This document shows, piece by piece, positions 1 to 2,578 of a stretch of 25,174 nucleotides of DNA. The translations under genes and the position numbers were made by a program. The notes below the pieces were generated by a model that was given only the letters and a program-made list of their open reading frames with translations, made no database searches and had not been told where the DNA came from. Source of the stretch: Campylobacterota bacterium (lineage in GTDB: Bacteria > Campylobacterota > Campylobacteria > Campylobacterales > Sulfurovaceae); the NCBI GenBank assembly GCA_034722955.1, contig JAYEOM010000008.1, positions 1 to 25,174 of the forward strand, read 5' to 3'. Each line of letters starts with the position of its first letter. Positions within the stretch are counted from its first letter, which is position 1.

Positions 1-107
1 CTAATATACTTATCACTAAAACTATTATCAACATAACGCCTAATCAATGATGTTTTCCCCACAGAGAAGTTACCCATTAAAACAATTTTTTTTTGTCTAT
101 TCCCCAT
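1..107 (-). CDS. Rab/Ras-like small GTPase, 5' part only (runs off the window edge; not in ORF track)
   Basis: Manual translation from ATG at 107 gives MGNRQKKIVLMGNFSVGKTSLIRRYVDNSFSDKYI. It has the KIV.MG lead-in, G1 P-loop GNFSVGKT and the F...Y switch-I lead-in typical of Rab-like GTPases. The start overlaps the stop of the upstream 653-aa gene. Confidence 0.88.
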   Translation of the reverse strand, partial: MGNRQKKIVLMGNFSVGKTSLIRRYVDNSFSDKYI

Positions 108-2058
108 CTTTAATCTCCCAATTAAACATCACACATCGTGAGAGAAACTCACTGTTTTTACCCTCTCTCTTCTCTAGCTCTTTGGGTGGTTTTGCTATAG
201 CTTTGATTATTATCATCTCCTCTTTCACTCCTCTATCTATCAGTGCCTGCTTGATACGCATGGCTCTGTTTGCGGATAACATTTTATTGAAAGTATCTGT
301 ACCTTTGACATCAGTATATCCACTTATCTTTACATAGTAGCACTCATTATCTATCATAACAGATGATAATCTGTCCAGTGCCATATTATACTCTTTAGGT
401 ATTTTAGAAGAACCTTGACTGAAGTAGATATTTTTATCCAATAGTGGCAAGACCTCTATTTCATTAATGACTCTTTGTGCATCAAGTACTGTTTCAATCT
501 TATGGATAAATGCTCTTCTAGCTTTTTCGTTGATGATTAGACCTGTAAATCTGATTTTATTTTCATCTTGATGGTATTTTATATTCGCTTGATACTCTCT
601 ATTGGTTAGTTCTACTATTTTCTGTATAGCTTCCGGAAAAACCTCTATATCAAAAAACAGTGTTTCACTATCTAAGATTGCTTTCATCTTTTCTATAAAT
701 ATCTCTCTAGCTTTTTTATCAATAAGTAGTCCTGTAAATCTTATCTTATCATAATAGTGTTTATATGCTATAGTGGCATTATAATCTCTATTGGTTGAAT
801 TTACTATCTGTTTCATCAGTACTATCTTATAGTTTTTATTAAAGTTCTTATCTATAGAGTTAACTTGATTGGAGTAGGTATATCCTCTAAGTACAACATC
901 TATCTTCTCCCTGTCGTCTCTGTAAAGAACCATACCATCAAGAATTACCTCCCCTTCTAATGTTGTATCAATATCTAAATCATAAATTTTAATTCTGTTT
1001 TCTTTAAGTATAGATTCTATCTTTTGTTCATTTTGTTCTATTTTATAGGATTGATAATAACTATAACTATACCAACCTAAAGGTATCATCAAAAAGAGCA
1101 CTAAGAACACCACCCCAAGCAGAGGAAACTTATCTTTGCTAGTATCCTTTGCATTATCAAAAAGTGTTGAGAGTATCTCTTTTATATTGGTGATATTGAG
1201 TTGACTTGTATCTCCATCAAACTCTGATAATGATCTAGAGTATTTTGAAACAATGCGTGAGAGAACTTTGGATAACTTATCTTTCATATCTGCATGATTA
1301 TTTGTAACAACAGCTAGATAGCAACTCCCAGCACTCTCTATACTGATAGATGAGTTACTATACTCTATCTCTCTAATCTCACTCATCTCTTGGTCGCTAC
1401 TAATCCAGTCATTTACAAAGCTTCTAATAGCACTAAGCATTGAAGCGACCATCTCTACCTCATCTATCTTTTGATTCTCCTCTTTGTGCAAATCTACGAT
1501 CAACAGACCCGACTCTTTATGGATCAAAAATATTGTCTCTATATCGACAAAATCTGTCTCCTGCAAGAGAAGTTGTGCTTCACTAACCCCATAAAACTTT
1601 GATTTAAATTTTCTTTTTATTCTTGCAAAAGAGAGAGAGGATTGCAGTGTACTATTGATTTGGTGCATCATATCACTAAAAGCAGTAGTAACATATTTGC
1701 TGATCATATTACCCATAATAGGGTAAAGTGCATCTACTATAGACTCTTTTTGCTCATGAACCTGTTCTTGTATCGCTGAAGTGATGATAGGAAAAAGTAT
1801 TTTTTGAAGATCTTTGGATCTATAGAGTTCATCTGCAACCCCTTTTGATATTATAGGTTGCAGTGAAGCATAAAGTTTTTGTTGATTCTCTTGTAAACTT
1901 TTTGATAGAATGTCAGTAATGATTTTGGATAATTTTTCTACCAATATACCTTTTTGTTGATTTTTCTCTAAATCTCTTATCTCTTGAGTTAGCCTATCTA
2001 TCTTATCTATCTCCTCTTGAAGGAGAAGACTTCTAAGCTTGGCATACTCAGCTGGCAT
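97..2058 (-). CDS. Membrane protein: N-terminal helical region, longin/roadblock-like domain, one TM helix, BON-like repeats, C-terminal OmpA-like peptidoglycan-binding domain
   Basis: 653-aa ORF. The C-terminal motifs IYFSQGSS, ISGYTDVKG, NKMLSANRA and SRCV are the OmpA/MotB signature. A single hydrophobic stretch FPLLGVVFLVLFLMIPLGWY is present. The segment IFLIHKESGLLI...MVASMLSAIRSF resembles longin/roadblock folds (pattern inference). Confidence 0.85.
   Translation of the reverse strand: MPAEYAKLRSLLLQEEIDKIDRLTQEIRDLEKNQQKGILVEKLSKIITDILSKSLQENQQKLYASLQPIISKGVADELYRSKDLQKILFPIITSAIQEQVHEQKESIVDALYPIMGNMISKYVTTAFSDMMHQINSTLQSSLSFARIKRKFKSKFYGVSEAQLLLQETDFVDIETIFLIHKESGLLIVDLHKEENQKIDEVEMVASMLSAIRSFVNDWISSDQEMSEIREIEYSNSSISIESAGSCYLAVVTNNHADMKDKLSKVLSRIVSKYSRSLSEFDGDTSQLNITNIKEILSTLFDNAKDTSKDKFPLLGVVFLVLFLMIPLGWYSYSYYQSYKIEQNEQKIESILKENRIKIYDLDIDTTLEGEVILDGMVLYRDDREKIDVVLRGYTYSNQVNSIDKNFNKNYKIVLMKQIVNSTNRDYNATIAYKHYYDKIRFTGLLIDKKAREIFIEKMKAILDSETLFFDIEVFPEAIQKIVELTNREYQANIKYHQDENKIRFTGLIINEKARRAFIHKIETVLDAQRVINEIEVLPLLDKNIYFSQGSSKIPKEYNMALDRLSSVMIDNECYYVKISGYTDVKGTDTFNKMLSANRAMRIKQALIDRGVKEEMIIIKAIAKPPKELEKREGKNSEFLSRCVMFNWEIKDGE
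445..810 (-). repeat. Tandem internal duplication (63-aa period) of a BON-like unit inside the OmpA-domain gene
   Basis: IVNSTNRDY..KIRFTGLLIDKKAREIFIEKMKAILD..DIEVFP versus IVELTNREY..KIRFTGLIINEKARRAFIHKIETVLD..EIEVLP. The DNA word cctgtaaatc occurs at 542 and 731, 189 nt apart. Confidence 0.85.
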
Positions 2059-2536
2059 CTACTTCTATCTTCTCTTTTATTTTATCTGCAAGTGTGGTAT
2101 CTTTAAGTTTAAGTGAATATTCCAAAAACATACTAGCGAGTGACTCTTTTGAGACATTTTTACGACTATTTGTCTCTTCCAAATCATTAAGCTTTGATTG
2201 CATTCTAGTTTTGAGAAGATTCAATGATTTTTTAGTCGATTCGTGTTGAGTGGCTAGTATATTTTCTATCGCAACAACTTCATTTTGCATAATACTATTT
2301 TGTTCATTGATGCGTTGTTCCAACAATAACTTGATGGATTCATATCTCTCATTGGAAACTTTATGTACTTTGTTGATTTTGGATTCAAGAGTTTTTTCTA
2401 TAGTATCTATATCTCTCTTATTATCTTCATGGAGTTGAGTGAGTCTCTTGTCAAGTAGTTTAAGTTGACTTTTTACCTCTTGAGAAAACTCTCCTATCAA
2501 TAATTCTCTTATCTGATTCATATCATTGCTTGTCAT
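2048..2536 (-). CDS. Hypothetical coiled-coil protein, first gene of the GTPase operon
   Basis: 162-aa ORF rich in E/K/L/Q heptads, with an AAGGA Shine-Dalgarno upstream. It overlaps the start of the next gene by 11 nt. Confidence 0.8.
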   Translation of the reverse strand: MTSNDMNQIRELLIGEFSQEVKSQLKLLDKRLTQLHEDNKRDIDTIEKTLESKINKVHKVSNERYESIKLLLEQRINEQNSIMQNEVVAIENILATQHESTKKSLNLLKTRMQSKLNDLEETNSRKNVSKESLASMFLEYSLKLKDTTLADKIKEKIEVDAS

Positions 2537-2569
2537 AGTAGCTAATCCTTGATAAAATTTTTATCCTTA

Positions 2570-2578
2570 ATTATACCA
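2570..2578 (-). promoter_or_regulatory. Extended -10 box (TGGTATAAT) for the coiled-coil/OmpA/GTPase operon
   Basis: Reverse complement of attatacca, about 34 nt upstream of the 2536 start codon. Confidence 0.6.

What the first reader, a model, noticed from the sequence alone, without database searches (positions are those of the whole stretch)
1..2578. Trans-envelope operon linking a Rab-like GTPase to a longin/roadblock-like, peptidoglycan-anchored membrane protein
Seen: three overlapping minus-strand genes under one extended -10 box, namely a coiled-coil protein, a 653-aa single-TM protein with BON-like repeats and an OmpA domain, and an unannotated gene starting MGNRQKKIVLMGNFSVGKTSLIRRYVDNSFSDKYI. 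Established: bacterial Ras-superfamily GTPases include MglA, regulated by the roadblock protein MglB, and the poorly understood Rup family; eukaryotic longin domains act in Rab GEF complexes such as TRAPP and Mon1-Ccz1. Inference: the membrane protein may tether a GTPase regulator to the cell wall, forming a Rab-like envelope-sensing or polarity switch with the coiled-coil protein as scaffold. I know of no functional description of this arrangement in Campylobacterota.
Basis: partly seen in the sequence, partly recalled or inferred. Interest (0 to 1): 0.85.

Follow-up and report, generated by a model that had tools for sequence, protein, structure and literature searches.

The report
Rup1 small-GTPase envelope signalling operon
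This is a copy, cut off by the end of the contig, of a gene cluster described by comparative genomics in 2014 but never tested, in which a Rab-like GTPase sits beside a cell-wall-anchored membrane protein whose inner domain is predicted to have the longin/roadblock fold.

Summary
Three minus-strand genes overlap by 11 nt at each junction: a 162-aa helical protein, a 653-aa single-pass membrane protein (BON-like repeats plus OmpA), and a Ras/Roc-type GTPase of which only 35 aa (the G1 motif) remain before the contig ends.

Relatives have a complete 158-188-aa GTPase with G1-G5, followed by a fourth gene. That gene encodes a signalling enzyme with a conserved PAS-like N-terminal domain. In this genome the fourth gene is probably the 5'-cut histidine kinase at the start of contig C68.

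The arrangement is not new. It fits the neighbourhood, the G3 trait and the lack of MglB coupling that describe the 'Group 1 Rup' (Rup1) cluster of Wuichet and Sogaard-Andersen (PMC4316618); placement in their tree was not tested. No experiment on it turned up.

Two things go beyond that paper:
- Its 'domain of unknown function' is predicted to have a longin/roadblock fold (Z 11-14 to Fuzzy, TRAPP, Mon1-Ccz1 and MglB).
- The cluster occurs in Campylobacterota, and the output enzymes are more varied than reported.

A predicted GTPase-longin complex gave only weak support. Verdict: new member of a known but uncharacterised kind, of moderate interest.

The parts
2570..2578 (-). Candidate extended -10 box (TGgTATAAT), 34 nt upstream of the first ATG of the operon
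   Evidence: Read directly. Not listed by the consensus scan, which requires a -35 hexamer. Function not shown.
2048..2536 (-). Gene 1: 162-aa cytoplasmic, long-helical (coiled-coil-like) protein, the first gene of the Rup1 cluster
   Evidence: ORF. No Pfam or NCBIfam family. No Pro and one Gly. The ESM Atlas model (pLDDT 0.82) resembles long-helix proteins. A homologue lies directly upstream of the membrane protein in 50 of 55 related loci.
97..2058 (-). Gene 2: 653-aa membrane protein. Helical N-region (aa 1-160), longin/roadblock-fold domain (about aa 170-300), one TM helix (about aa 309-333), then periplasmic BON-like repeats and an OmpA-like peptidoglycan-binding domain (545-623)
   Evidence: OmpA and BON. 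AF2 model. Foldseek E 2.7e-5 to TRAPP and MglB. VIA-align Z 13.9-10.4 to longin and roadblock chains. 2907 cluster representatives share the cytoplasmic domain.
1159..1551 (-). Part of gene 2 that encodes the predicted longin/roadblock-fold domain (about aa 170-300)
   Evidence: Secondary-structure order b-b-a-b-b-b-a-a in the model. Model range 170-304 in the alignments.
3..107 (-). Gene 3: first 35 aa of a Rup1 (Rab-like) small GTPase, G1 motif only, cut by the contig end
   Evidence: It is 87% identical to the N-termini of complete 165-167-aa orthologues, which carry G1-G5.

Best explanation
The locus is a Group 1 Rup (Rup1) G-protein signalling cassette with four genes: a long-helical protein, a membrane protein, a Rab-like small GTPase and a signalling output enzyme. 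In this assembly it is split. Contig C8 carries genes 1 and 2 and the first 35 codons of gene 3. After an unassembled stretch of roughly 0.7 kb, the 5'-cut histidine kinase at the start of contig C68 is most likely gene 4.

Proposed mechanism (inferred): the membrane protein is fixed to peptidoglycan through its OmpA domain and carries BON repeats in the periplasm. Its cytoplasmic longin/roadblock-fold domain is the platform that binds the GTPase and sets its nucleotide state, as GEF or GAP. The GTPase in turn engages the dedicated PAS-like N-terminal domain of the output enzyme. That enzyme is a histidine kinase here and a diguanylate cyclase, HD-type phosphodiesterase-like protein, nucleotide cyclase or sigma-54 activator elsewhere. 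Envelope state is thereby converted into phosphorelay or second-messenger output.

Shown here: gene order, domain content, conservation of the four-gene order, and the predicted folds. Inferred: all binding steps, the direction of signalling and the stimulus.
For: (1) Conserved order. The genome scan kept its best 80 loci. 25 of them hold a 1201-1204-aa cyanobacterial paralogue with none of the partner genes. Of the other 55 loci, 50 have the helical protein upstream, 48 have the GTPase directly downstream and 45 have an output protein with the shared N-domain. Three of the seven without a GTPase are cut by contig ends. By their record titles the loci come from Campylobacterota, Cyanobacteria, Chitinophagales and Ignavibacteriota.

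(2) The orthologous GTPases are complete. Pfam Ras gives E 5.5e-25 to 3e-29. A WDxEG motif was found in 50 of 53, the pattern landing elsewhere in the other 3, and NKxD in 52 of 53. The residue after the G3 glycine is Gln in only 5 of 53. This is the trait the paper reports for Group 1 Rup.

(3) The paper describes the same neighbourhood: a coiled-coil protein, an unknown domain followed by TM and OmpA, rup, and an output with a conserved N-terminal Gln.

(4) Longin/roadblock fold of the unknown domain.

(5) The output N-domain is PAS-like followed by a long helix (pLDDT 92.9; Foldseek E 2e-5 to PAS and LOV chains). It sits in front of six kinds of output module.

(6) In the own genome, the only ORF that matches the output N-domain profile is the C68 fragment (E 0.0015). 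It is 57% identical to the kinase of the closest relative, against 44% or less for paralogues.

(7) The complex prediction of two longin-region copies with the GTPase gave weak support. The median score was 0.51 and the best of 3 controls 0.00. The mark was reached by 116 of 157 solved complexes and 2 of 215 mismatched pairs, but scores of 0.60 or under by only 18 of those 157 and by both mismatches that passed. The runs agree in at least 68% of contacts and the partner pLDDT is at least 75. Similar complexes (MglA-MglB, Rab-TRAPP) are solved, so the pass may reflect likeness only.
Against: - The window itself shows only the G1 motif. The rest of the gene and the join to C68 are inferred, not seen.
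- The cytoplasmic model has modest confidence (mean pLDDT 65.5, with aa 107-142 below 50).
- No sequence-level link to Roadblock or longin families was found. Pfam gave none at E <= 1, and none appeared among the 60 listed of 81 PDB profile matches.
- Four loci with room downstream (L044, L058, L060, L087) and two relatives (G001, G011) have genes 1 and 2 without a GTPase next to them. The membrane pair can therefore exist without the switch nearby.
- The conserved Gln of the output protein lies in the helix that follows a DxT motif at the end of the PAS core. It may be a linker-helix residue and not a catalytic residue supplied in trans.
- The complex score is in the weak band.
Confidence: 0.7

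Rival explanations
1. Inside-out signalling. The PAS-like output enzyme or another cytoplasmic cue sets the GTPase state. The GTPase then acts through the longin domain on the membrane protein, changing how it holds peptidoglycan or the membrane (envelope remodelling). The components are the same but the flow of information is reversed.
For: The output proteins often carry further PAS and GAF sensor domains, which suggests cytoplasmic inputs. In the closest relative the next gene downstream is an L,D-transpeptidase. No periplasmic ligand-binding domain was found, only BON and OmpA.
Against: The fourth gene always ends in a classical transmitter or effector module (HK, GGDEF, cyclase, sigma-54 activator), and these usually sit at the output end. 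The L,D-transpeptidase neighbour was seen in one locus only.
Confidence: 0.15
2. An MglA/MglB-type polarity switch. The GTPase marks a cell pole, and the longin/roadblock domain acts as its GAP, as in Myxococcus.
For: MglB chains are among the fold matches (Z 11.0-11.6). A roadblock dimer binding one GTPase is the solved precedent.
Against: The GTPase profile matches Rab proteins best, in all 60 listed matches, and no MglA chain is among them. The published scheme places GTPases with this neighbourhood in the Rup family, defined as the clade not coupled to MglB homologues. A canonical Robl_LC7 gene was found in 2 of 121 genomes of the phylum and not in this one. The conserved fourth gene is a signalling enzyme.
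Confidence: 0.08
3. The membrane protein is only a structural envelope tether or a stator-like protein (Pal, MotB or ZorB type). Its adjacency to the GTPase has no functional meaning.
For: The C-terminal domain matches Pal, YiaD, MotB and ZorB models, all below their cut-offs. Some sources name relatives 'flagellar motor protein MotB'. Some loci lack the GTPase.
Against: These matches cover only the OmpA domain. The 310-aa cytoplasmic region is the best conserved part and has a GTPase-platform fold. The GTPase follows directly in 48 of 55 loci across phyla. Overlapping stop and start codons suggest coupled translation.
Confidence: 0.05

Closest known systems
Group 1 Rup (Rup1) gene neighbourhood, Wuichet and Sogaard-Andersen, Genome Biol Evol 2015 (PMC4316618)
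   Same: The same four components: a coiled-coil protein; a protein with an unassigned domain, an inner-membrane helix and OmpA; a small Ras-like GTPase without the G3 glutamine; and an output enzyme with a conserved N-terminal Gln.
   Different: The paper names Bacteroidetes, Chloroflexi, Cyanobacteria and gamma-Proteobacteria for Group 1, plus single Sorangium and Mesorhizobium members. Epsilon-Proteobacteria are listed only for the Rup family as a whole, and its supplementary table could not be read. It leaves the membrane protein's domain unassigned and lists only DGC/PDE or kinase outputs. Here that domain is predicted to be longin/roadblock, the output N-domain PAS-like, and the outputs also include an HD-type domain (HD_5), an adenylate/guanylate cyclase and a sigma-54 activator.
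Actinobacterial conservon (CvnA kinase, CvnB roadblock, CvnC, CvnD GTPase) and the mycobacterial Mfp cluster
   Same: A four-gene cassette that joins a small GTPase, a roadblock-superfamily partner and a histidine kinase. The paper itself draws the analogy. A Streptomyces roadblock/LC7 structure (3kye) is among the fold matches.
   Different: In the conservon the GTPase belongs to the MglA family, the roadblock protein is a separate soluble protein that Pfam detects, and there is no peptidoglycan anchor (and the abstracts listed).
MglA-MglB of Myxococcus and Thermus
   Same: A small GTPase with a roadblock-fold regulator. Fold match Z 11.0-11.6 over about 102-107 residues.
   Different: A different GTPase family and no Pfam Robl_LC7 match. 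Here the regulator domain is fused to a transmembrane, cell-wall-bound protein, and the output is enzymatic and not polar localisation.
Eukaryotic longin-domain Rab GEFs (TRAPP Bet5/Trs23, Mon1-Ccz1, Fuzzy-Inturned)
   Same: These give the highest-scoring and longest fold alignments (Z 13.9-11.8, 119-130 residues, rmsd 2.4-3.5). The partner GTPase is Rab-like by sequence.
   Different: Sequence identity is 11-19%, so no sequence-level homology is shown. GEF activity is untested. The eukaryotic complexes are soluble multi-subunit assemblies that work on lipidated Rabs at organelle membranes (the last point is recalled, not from a call).
BON + OmpA-like periplasmic modules (M. tuberculosis Rv0899/ArfA) and YfiB of the YfiBNR c-di-GMP system
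   Same: The family profile matches Rv0899 across BON and OmpA (E 4.3e-12), OsmY (E 4.3e-7) and YfiB (E about 3e-9). That YfiB is an OmpA-type protein relaying envelope state to a diguanylate cyclase is recalled, not from a call.
   Different: Those proteins have no cytoplasmic longin domain and no GTPase partner.

Membership tests
Group 1 Rup (Rup1) system | Single-domain Ras-superfamily GTPase with G1-G5 motifs like those of eukaryotic Ras | tested here: inconclusive
   In the window only G1 (GNFSVGKT) is present before the contig ends. Orthologues in 48 loci and 5 relatives are complete, with Pfam Ras E down to 3e-29, WDxEG found in 50 of 53 and NKxD in 52 of 53.
Group 1 Rup (Rup1) system | No conserved catalytic Gln after the G3 glycine | tested here: met
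   Met in orthologues, where this position is Gln in 5 of 53 and otherwise H, A, S, R, K or E. It cannot be read in the window's own truncated gene.
Group 1 Rup (Rup1) system | Neighbourhood of a coiled-coil protein and a protein with an unassigned domain, TM helix and OmpA | tested here: met
   Both lie in the window, directly upstream and overlapping.
Group 1 Rup (Rup1) system | Fourth gene: a signalling output whose N-terminal region carries a conserved Gln | tested here: inconclusive
   Not on the window's contig. The 5'-cut kinase at C68:3-806 is the only match to the N-domain profile in the genome and keeps the LQDRN motif. The join is inferred. In relatives the gene is present in 45 of 55 loci, and the Gln is 92% conserved.
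Group 1 Rup (Rup1) system | Placement in the Group 1 clade of the published tree | not tested
   The reference sequences are in a supplementary table that could not be read. The only indirect evidence is 37-47% identity and 22 invariant columns shared with cyanobacterial GTPases that have the same neighbourhood.
Group 1 Rup (Rup1) system | Not encoded near a sequence-detectable MglB / Robl_LC7 homologue | tested here: met
   No Robl_LC7 match in the three window proteins at E <= 1 and none in the whole genome at E <= 1e-5.
Roadblock/LC7 - longin fold superfamily (membrane protein, aa about 170-300) | Alpha/beta sandwich with strand order b-b-a-b-b-b and flanking helices | tested here: met
   Secondary-structure order in the AF2 model. 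Foldseek E 2.7e-5 to 4.5e-4, probability 1.00. VIA-align Z 13.9-10.4, rmsd 2.2-4.4, 96-130 residues aligned. This rests on a predicted model of moderate confidence.
Roadblock/LC7 - longin fold superfamily (membrane protein, aa about 170-300) | Sequence-profile membership (Pfam Robl_LC7 or a longin family) | tested here: not met
   No such Pfam family at E <= 1. No roadblock or longin chain among the 60 listed of 81 PDB profile matches.
Roadblock/LC7 - longin fold superfamily (membrane protein, aa about 170-300) | Binds and regulates a small GTPase | tested here: inconclusive
   The complex prediction gave weak support only (median 0.51, best control 0.00). GEF or GAP activity cannot be tested with these tools.
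MglA family | Coupled to an MglB homologue and placed in the MglA subclade | tested here: not met
   No MglB gene. All 60 listed PDB matches are Rab/Ypt/Sec4.
OmpA-like peptidoglycan-binding domain | Pfam OmpA above its cut-off, with the conserved D/G/N/R positions | tested here: met
   E 3e-12, 47.2 bits against a cut-off of 27.2. D583, G586, N591, R598 and R641 are nearly invariant in 60 relatives. That these residues bind peptidoglycan is recalled, not tested.

The most novel reading that the evidence does not exclude
The 'unknown' cytoplasmic domain of the Rup1 membrane protein is a true longin-type regulator (GEF or GAP) of its Rab-like GTPase. The Rab-longin partnership that organises eukaryotic membrane traffic would then already exist in bacteria as a cell-wall-anchored signalling module, and it could have entered eukaryotes together with the GTPase. 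The Rup family, defined by having no MglB partner, would in fact have a hidden one.
Probability: 0.15. Interest if true: 0.85.

Novelty: new member of a known kind. Interest (0 to 1): 0.5.

Why it matters
Rup1 GTPases are reported as the bacterial proteins most similar to eukaryotic Rab/Ras/Rho/Ran (PMC4316618, passages; bioRxiv 10.1101/2024.02.28.582541, passages). In the paper library searched, no member has been studied experimentally.

A longin/roadblock-fold domain next to these GTPases gives a concrete, testable candidate for their missing regulator. It also ties the system to the GTPase-platform theme shared by MglB, Ragulator, TRAPP and Mon1-Ccz1.

For bacterial physiology, the cluster is a candidate route from the peptidoglycan layer to histidine-kinase, c-di-GMP, cyclic-nucleotide or sigma-54 outputs. 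It occurs in at least four phyla.

This particular copy adds little on its own. It is incomplete in the assembly and comes from an uncultured brine-metagenome organism whose closest relative found is a Sulfurovum MAG.

Tried and rejected
- **Recovering the missing part of the GTPase gene.** tblastn with five orthologues found only the C8 fragment, plus a weak match inside an 885-aa frame on C118. Pfam Ras and Roc scans of the genome gave no other small GTPase. Public contigs of three of four runs reach only 31 letters beyond window position 1, and none bridges to another contig. The fourth run laid nothing.
- **Sequence-level link of the cytoplasmic domain to roadblock or longin.** None in Pfam or NCBIfam. 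None among the 60 listed of 81 PDB profile matches.
- **Relationship between the helical protein and the N-terminus of the membrane protein.** BLASTP gave no alignment.
- **Anti-phage defence reading.** PADLOC gave only weak matches: ZorB over the OmpA part (E 2.4e-4) and LeoA over the N-terminal part of the GTPase domain (E 1.2e-4). Rejected.
- **Functional link to neighbouring genes.** The rest of the window holds housekeeping genes such as tkt, polyprenyl synthase, shikimate kinase, dapB, purF-like and nrdA-like. No link was seen.
- **Supplementary table S2 of PMC4316618.** It could not be searched. Whether Campylobacterota members were already placed in Group 1 stays open.
- **Consensus promoter scan.** No better than chance.
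Full report
**1. What is in the sequence**

The window is the first 25174 bases of contig C8 of a 140-contig genome of 2.51 Mb, 99.97% complete. Three ORFs lie on the minus strand:
- 2048-2536 (162 aa)
- 97-2058 (653 aa)

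Both junctions overlap by 11 nt. A TGgTATAAT extended -10 lies at 2578-2570, 34 nt before the first ATG. The generic promoter scan did not list it and found no excess of promoter-like sites (13 against 12.3 +/- 3.5).

Pfam finds OmpA at aa 545-623 (E 3e-12) and a sub-threshold BON match at 342-392. The 35-aa fragment passes the Roc and Ras cut-offs. NCBIfam matches cover only the OmpA part, all below their cut-offs.

The membrane protein has one hydrophobic span at about aa 309-333. It also has a genuine tandem BON-like repeat, about 429-475 against 492-538 (score 113 against shuffles at 25 +/- 4.8). The 162-aa protein has no family, no proline and one glycine. Its ESM Atlas model resembles long-helix proteins.

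The caveat is that only the G1 motif of the GTPase is visible.

**2. The missing part of the operon**

The rest of the GTPase gene is not in the assembly. Public contigs of three runs stop 31 letters past window position 1.

Ten of 41 related genomes, counting the window's own, have the conserved cytoplasmic part of the membrane protein. In five of them the gene is followed by a complete GTPase of 158-171 aa. In four of these a GGDEF diguanylate cyclase with an unassigned N-terminal region comes next, and in three of the four that region is followed by a PAS domain. The fifth contig ends after the GTPase.

The closest relative found is a Sulfurovum MAG (locus L043), 84% identical in the cytoplasmic domain and with the same 653-aa length. 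It has a 163-aa GTPase followed by a 375-aa histidine kinase.

In the window's genome, contig C68 begins at base 3 with the last 267 aa of a kinase. This kinase is 57% identical to the Sulfurovum one, while paralogues reach 44% or less. It is the only ORF in the genome that matches the profile of the output N-domain (E 0.0015). I infer the layout C8 | about 0.7 kb missing | C68. This join has not been seen.

**3. Conservation**

The cytoplasmic region (aa 90-310) has 2907 cluster representatives at E <= 0.001 in 1.84 billion proteins, of which 1770 are at E <= 1e-10. A word-indexed search gave 362 proteins. Where sources name them, they are called OmpA family protein or, in two JGI rows, flagellar motor protein MotB.

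Of these 80:
- 25 hold a 1201-1204-aa cyanobacterial paralogue with none of the partner genes.
- Of the remaining 55, 50 have the helical protein upstream, 48 have the GTPase directly downstream and 45 have an output protein with the shared N-domain.
- Three of the seven loci without a GTPase are cut by contig ends. Four (L044, L058, L060, L087) truly lack it at that position.

By their record titles the loci come from Campylobacterota, Cyanobacteria, Chitinophagales and Ignavibacteriota.

Output modules seen behind the shared N-domain are GGDEF, HisKA/HATPase, a hybrid kinase, HD_5, a sigma-54 activator and an adenylate/guanylate cyclase.

**4. The GTPase**

Orthologues carry all the motifs. 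22 columns are invariant across 44 sequences. A WDxEG motif was found in 50 of 53 (in the other 3 the search pattern landed elsewhere), and NKxD in 52 of 53. The position after the G3 glycine is Gln in only 5 of 53. The family profile finds Rab, Ypt and Sec4 proteins as all 60 listed PDB matches (E 1.5e-36 to 1.8e-32). 'Rab-like' is a fair description.

**5. What is already in print**

Wuichet and Sogaard-Andersen (PMC4316618; sections 12 and 16-18 read, plus passages) define the Rup family as the small-GTPase clade not coupled to MglB homologues. They describe Group 1 Rup as lacking the G3 glutamine and as sitting in a four-gene neighbourhood:
- a coiled-coil protein;
- the rup gene;
- a diguanylate cyclase/phosphodiesterase or a histidine kinase whose N-terminal region has an invariant glutamine.

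They propose a conservon-like signalling system and state that no Rup system has been characterised. The word 'longin' does not occur in that paper.

A 2024 preprint uses the name Rup1 and places it with eukaryotic Rab/Ras/Rho/Ran and Asgard RasL (passages). Five further full-text searches found no experimental study and no fold assignment for the membrane protein. One of their hits, PMC3791482, was checked by passages and is unrelated. The library lacks most subscription journals, and the paper's supplementary table could not be read.

(a) An AlphaFold2 model of aa 1-310 was built from 51 sequences (mean pLDDT 65.5; blocks of 82-89 in parts of the domain; aa 107-142 poor). It gives a b-b-a-b-b-b-a-a unit at aa 173-297.
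- Foldseek's best matches are TRAPP longin subunits, MglB, a Streptomyces roadblock, Ragulator, AP sigma subunits and Mon1-Ccz1 (E 2.7e-5 to 4.5e-4).
- VIA-align gives Z 13.9-13.4 to Fuzzy and Trs23 (122-126 residues) and Z 12.4-10.8 to the Sec22b, VAMP7 and Ykt6 longin domains, TRAPP subunits and Mon1-Ccz1.
- It gives Z 11.9-10.4 to roadblock proteins, including MglB and Asgard roadblocks.
- The longin matches also cover the two C-terminal helices, so the topology is closer to longin.
- No sequence-level link was found.

(b) The shared N-domain of the output enzymes is predicted with high confidence (pLDDT 92.9) as a PAS-like core followed by a 40-residue helix. Its matches are PAS, LOV and FixL structures. 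The conserved Gln and Asn lie in that helix, just after a DxT motif. They may be linker-helix positions, not a catalytic residue supplied in trans as the paper speculated.

(c) BON domains are clear in relatives (E 2e-10 to 2.6e-11). The family profile matches Rv0899 across BON and OmpA, and also OsmY, YfiB, Pal and MotB.

(d) A complex prediction of two copies of the cytoplasmic region (aa 95-300) with the GTPase, both from L043, gave weak support. The median score was 0.51 and the best of 3 controls 0.00. The mark was reached by 116 of 157 solved complexes and 2 of 215 mismatches, but scores of 0.60 or under by only 18 of the 157 and by both mismatches that passed. At least 68% of contacts were shared between runs, and the partner pLDDT was at least 75. 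Because MglA-MglB and Rab-longin complexes are solved, the pass may reflect likeness.

**7. Most likely mechanism**

The cluster is a membrane-bound G-protein signalling cassette. The shown parts are the architecture, the conservation and the predicted folds.

The inferred steps are these. The OmpA/BON part ties the protein to the cell wall and reports envelope state. The longin-fold domain binds the Rup1 GTPase and controls its nucleotide state. The GTPase acts on the PAS-like N-domain of the output enzyme, which is a histidine kinase in this organism.

The direction of flow could be reversed, which is the inside-out rival. A polarity role like that of MglA is less likely given the GTPase family and the enzymatic fourth gene. 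A purely structural tether is unlikely given the conservation of the cytoplasmic region and of the gene order. A defence role found no support.

**8. Verdict**

Its claim of an undescribed arrangement is not, and it missed the output gene. This is a new, incomplete member of a known but experimentally untouched kind. The fold assignment of the membrane protein's cytoplasmic domain is the most useful new lead.

Noticed in passing
L062 3889-7500 and 24 similar loci (L064, L066-L068, L077-L079, L081, L086, L089, L090, L093, L094, L098, L099, L104, L107, L108, L110, L111, L114, L116, L117, L121): A cyanobacterial paralogue of 1201-1204 aa, mostly from Microcoleus. It carries the same cytoplasmic domain plus BON and OmpA, behind an N-terminal extension of about 700 aa. 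None of the 25 loci has the helical protein, the GTPase or an output gene next to it.
   Followed up: partly
L044, L058, L060, L087; also G001 (L038) and G011 (L042): These loci have the helical protein and the membrane protein but no GTPase or output gene downstream, although the contig continues. They may be a two-gene variant, or the partners may be encoded elsewhere.
   Followed up: no
L123 (G000:C68) 881-2473, minus strand: A 530-aa protein with an N-terminal helix-turn-helix region fused to HipA N- and C-terminal domains (HipA_C E 1.9e-30) lies next to the 5'-cut kinase on the 2.9-kb contig. It looks like a HipA-type toxin-antitoxin kinase.
   Followed up: no
L043 9383-11119: In the closest relative, the gene after the Rup1 cluster encodes an L,D-transpeptidase (YkuD with a peptidoglycan-binding domain). 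The gene before the cluster, on the opposite strand, encodes a NIT-PAS hybrid histidine kinase. The cell-wall enzyme next to a cell-wall-anchored sensor may be a coincidence.
   Followed up: no
window 1639-1749 (aa 104-140 of the membrane protein): The most conserved stretch of the whole family is the DALYPIMGNMISKYV motif, with D109, L111, P113 and G116 invariant in 60 sequences. It lies in a helix that AlphaFold2 models with pLDDT below 50. Its role is unexplained; it could be a partner-binding or membrane-associated helix.
   Followed up: no
window 1 (contig start): Public contigs from three runs of one study all end 31 letters beyond window position 1. The assembly graph seems to branch at the same point inside the GTPase gene in several samples. 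This could reflect strain variation or a repeat.
   Followed up: partly
L065, L085, L101, L118, L122; L049: Some loci carry two output genes with the shared PAS-like N-domain after one GTPase, for example a diguanylate cyclase followed by an adenylate/guanylate cyclase in L065. L049 has an extra one upstream. One GTPase may serve several outputs.
   Followed up: no
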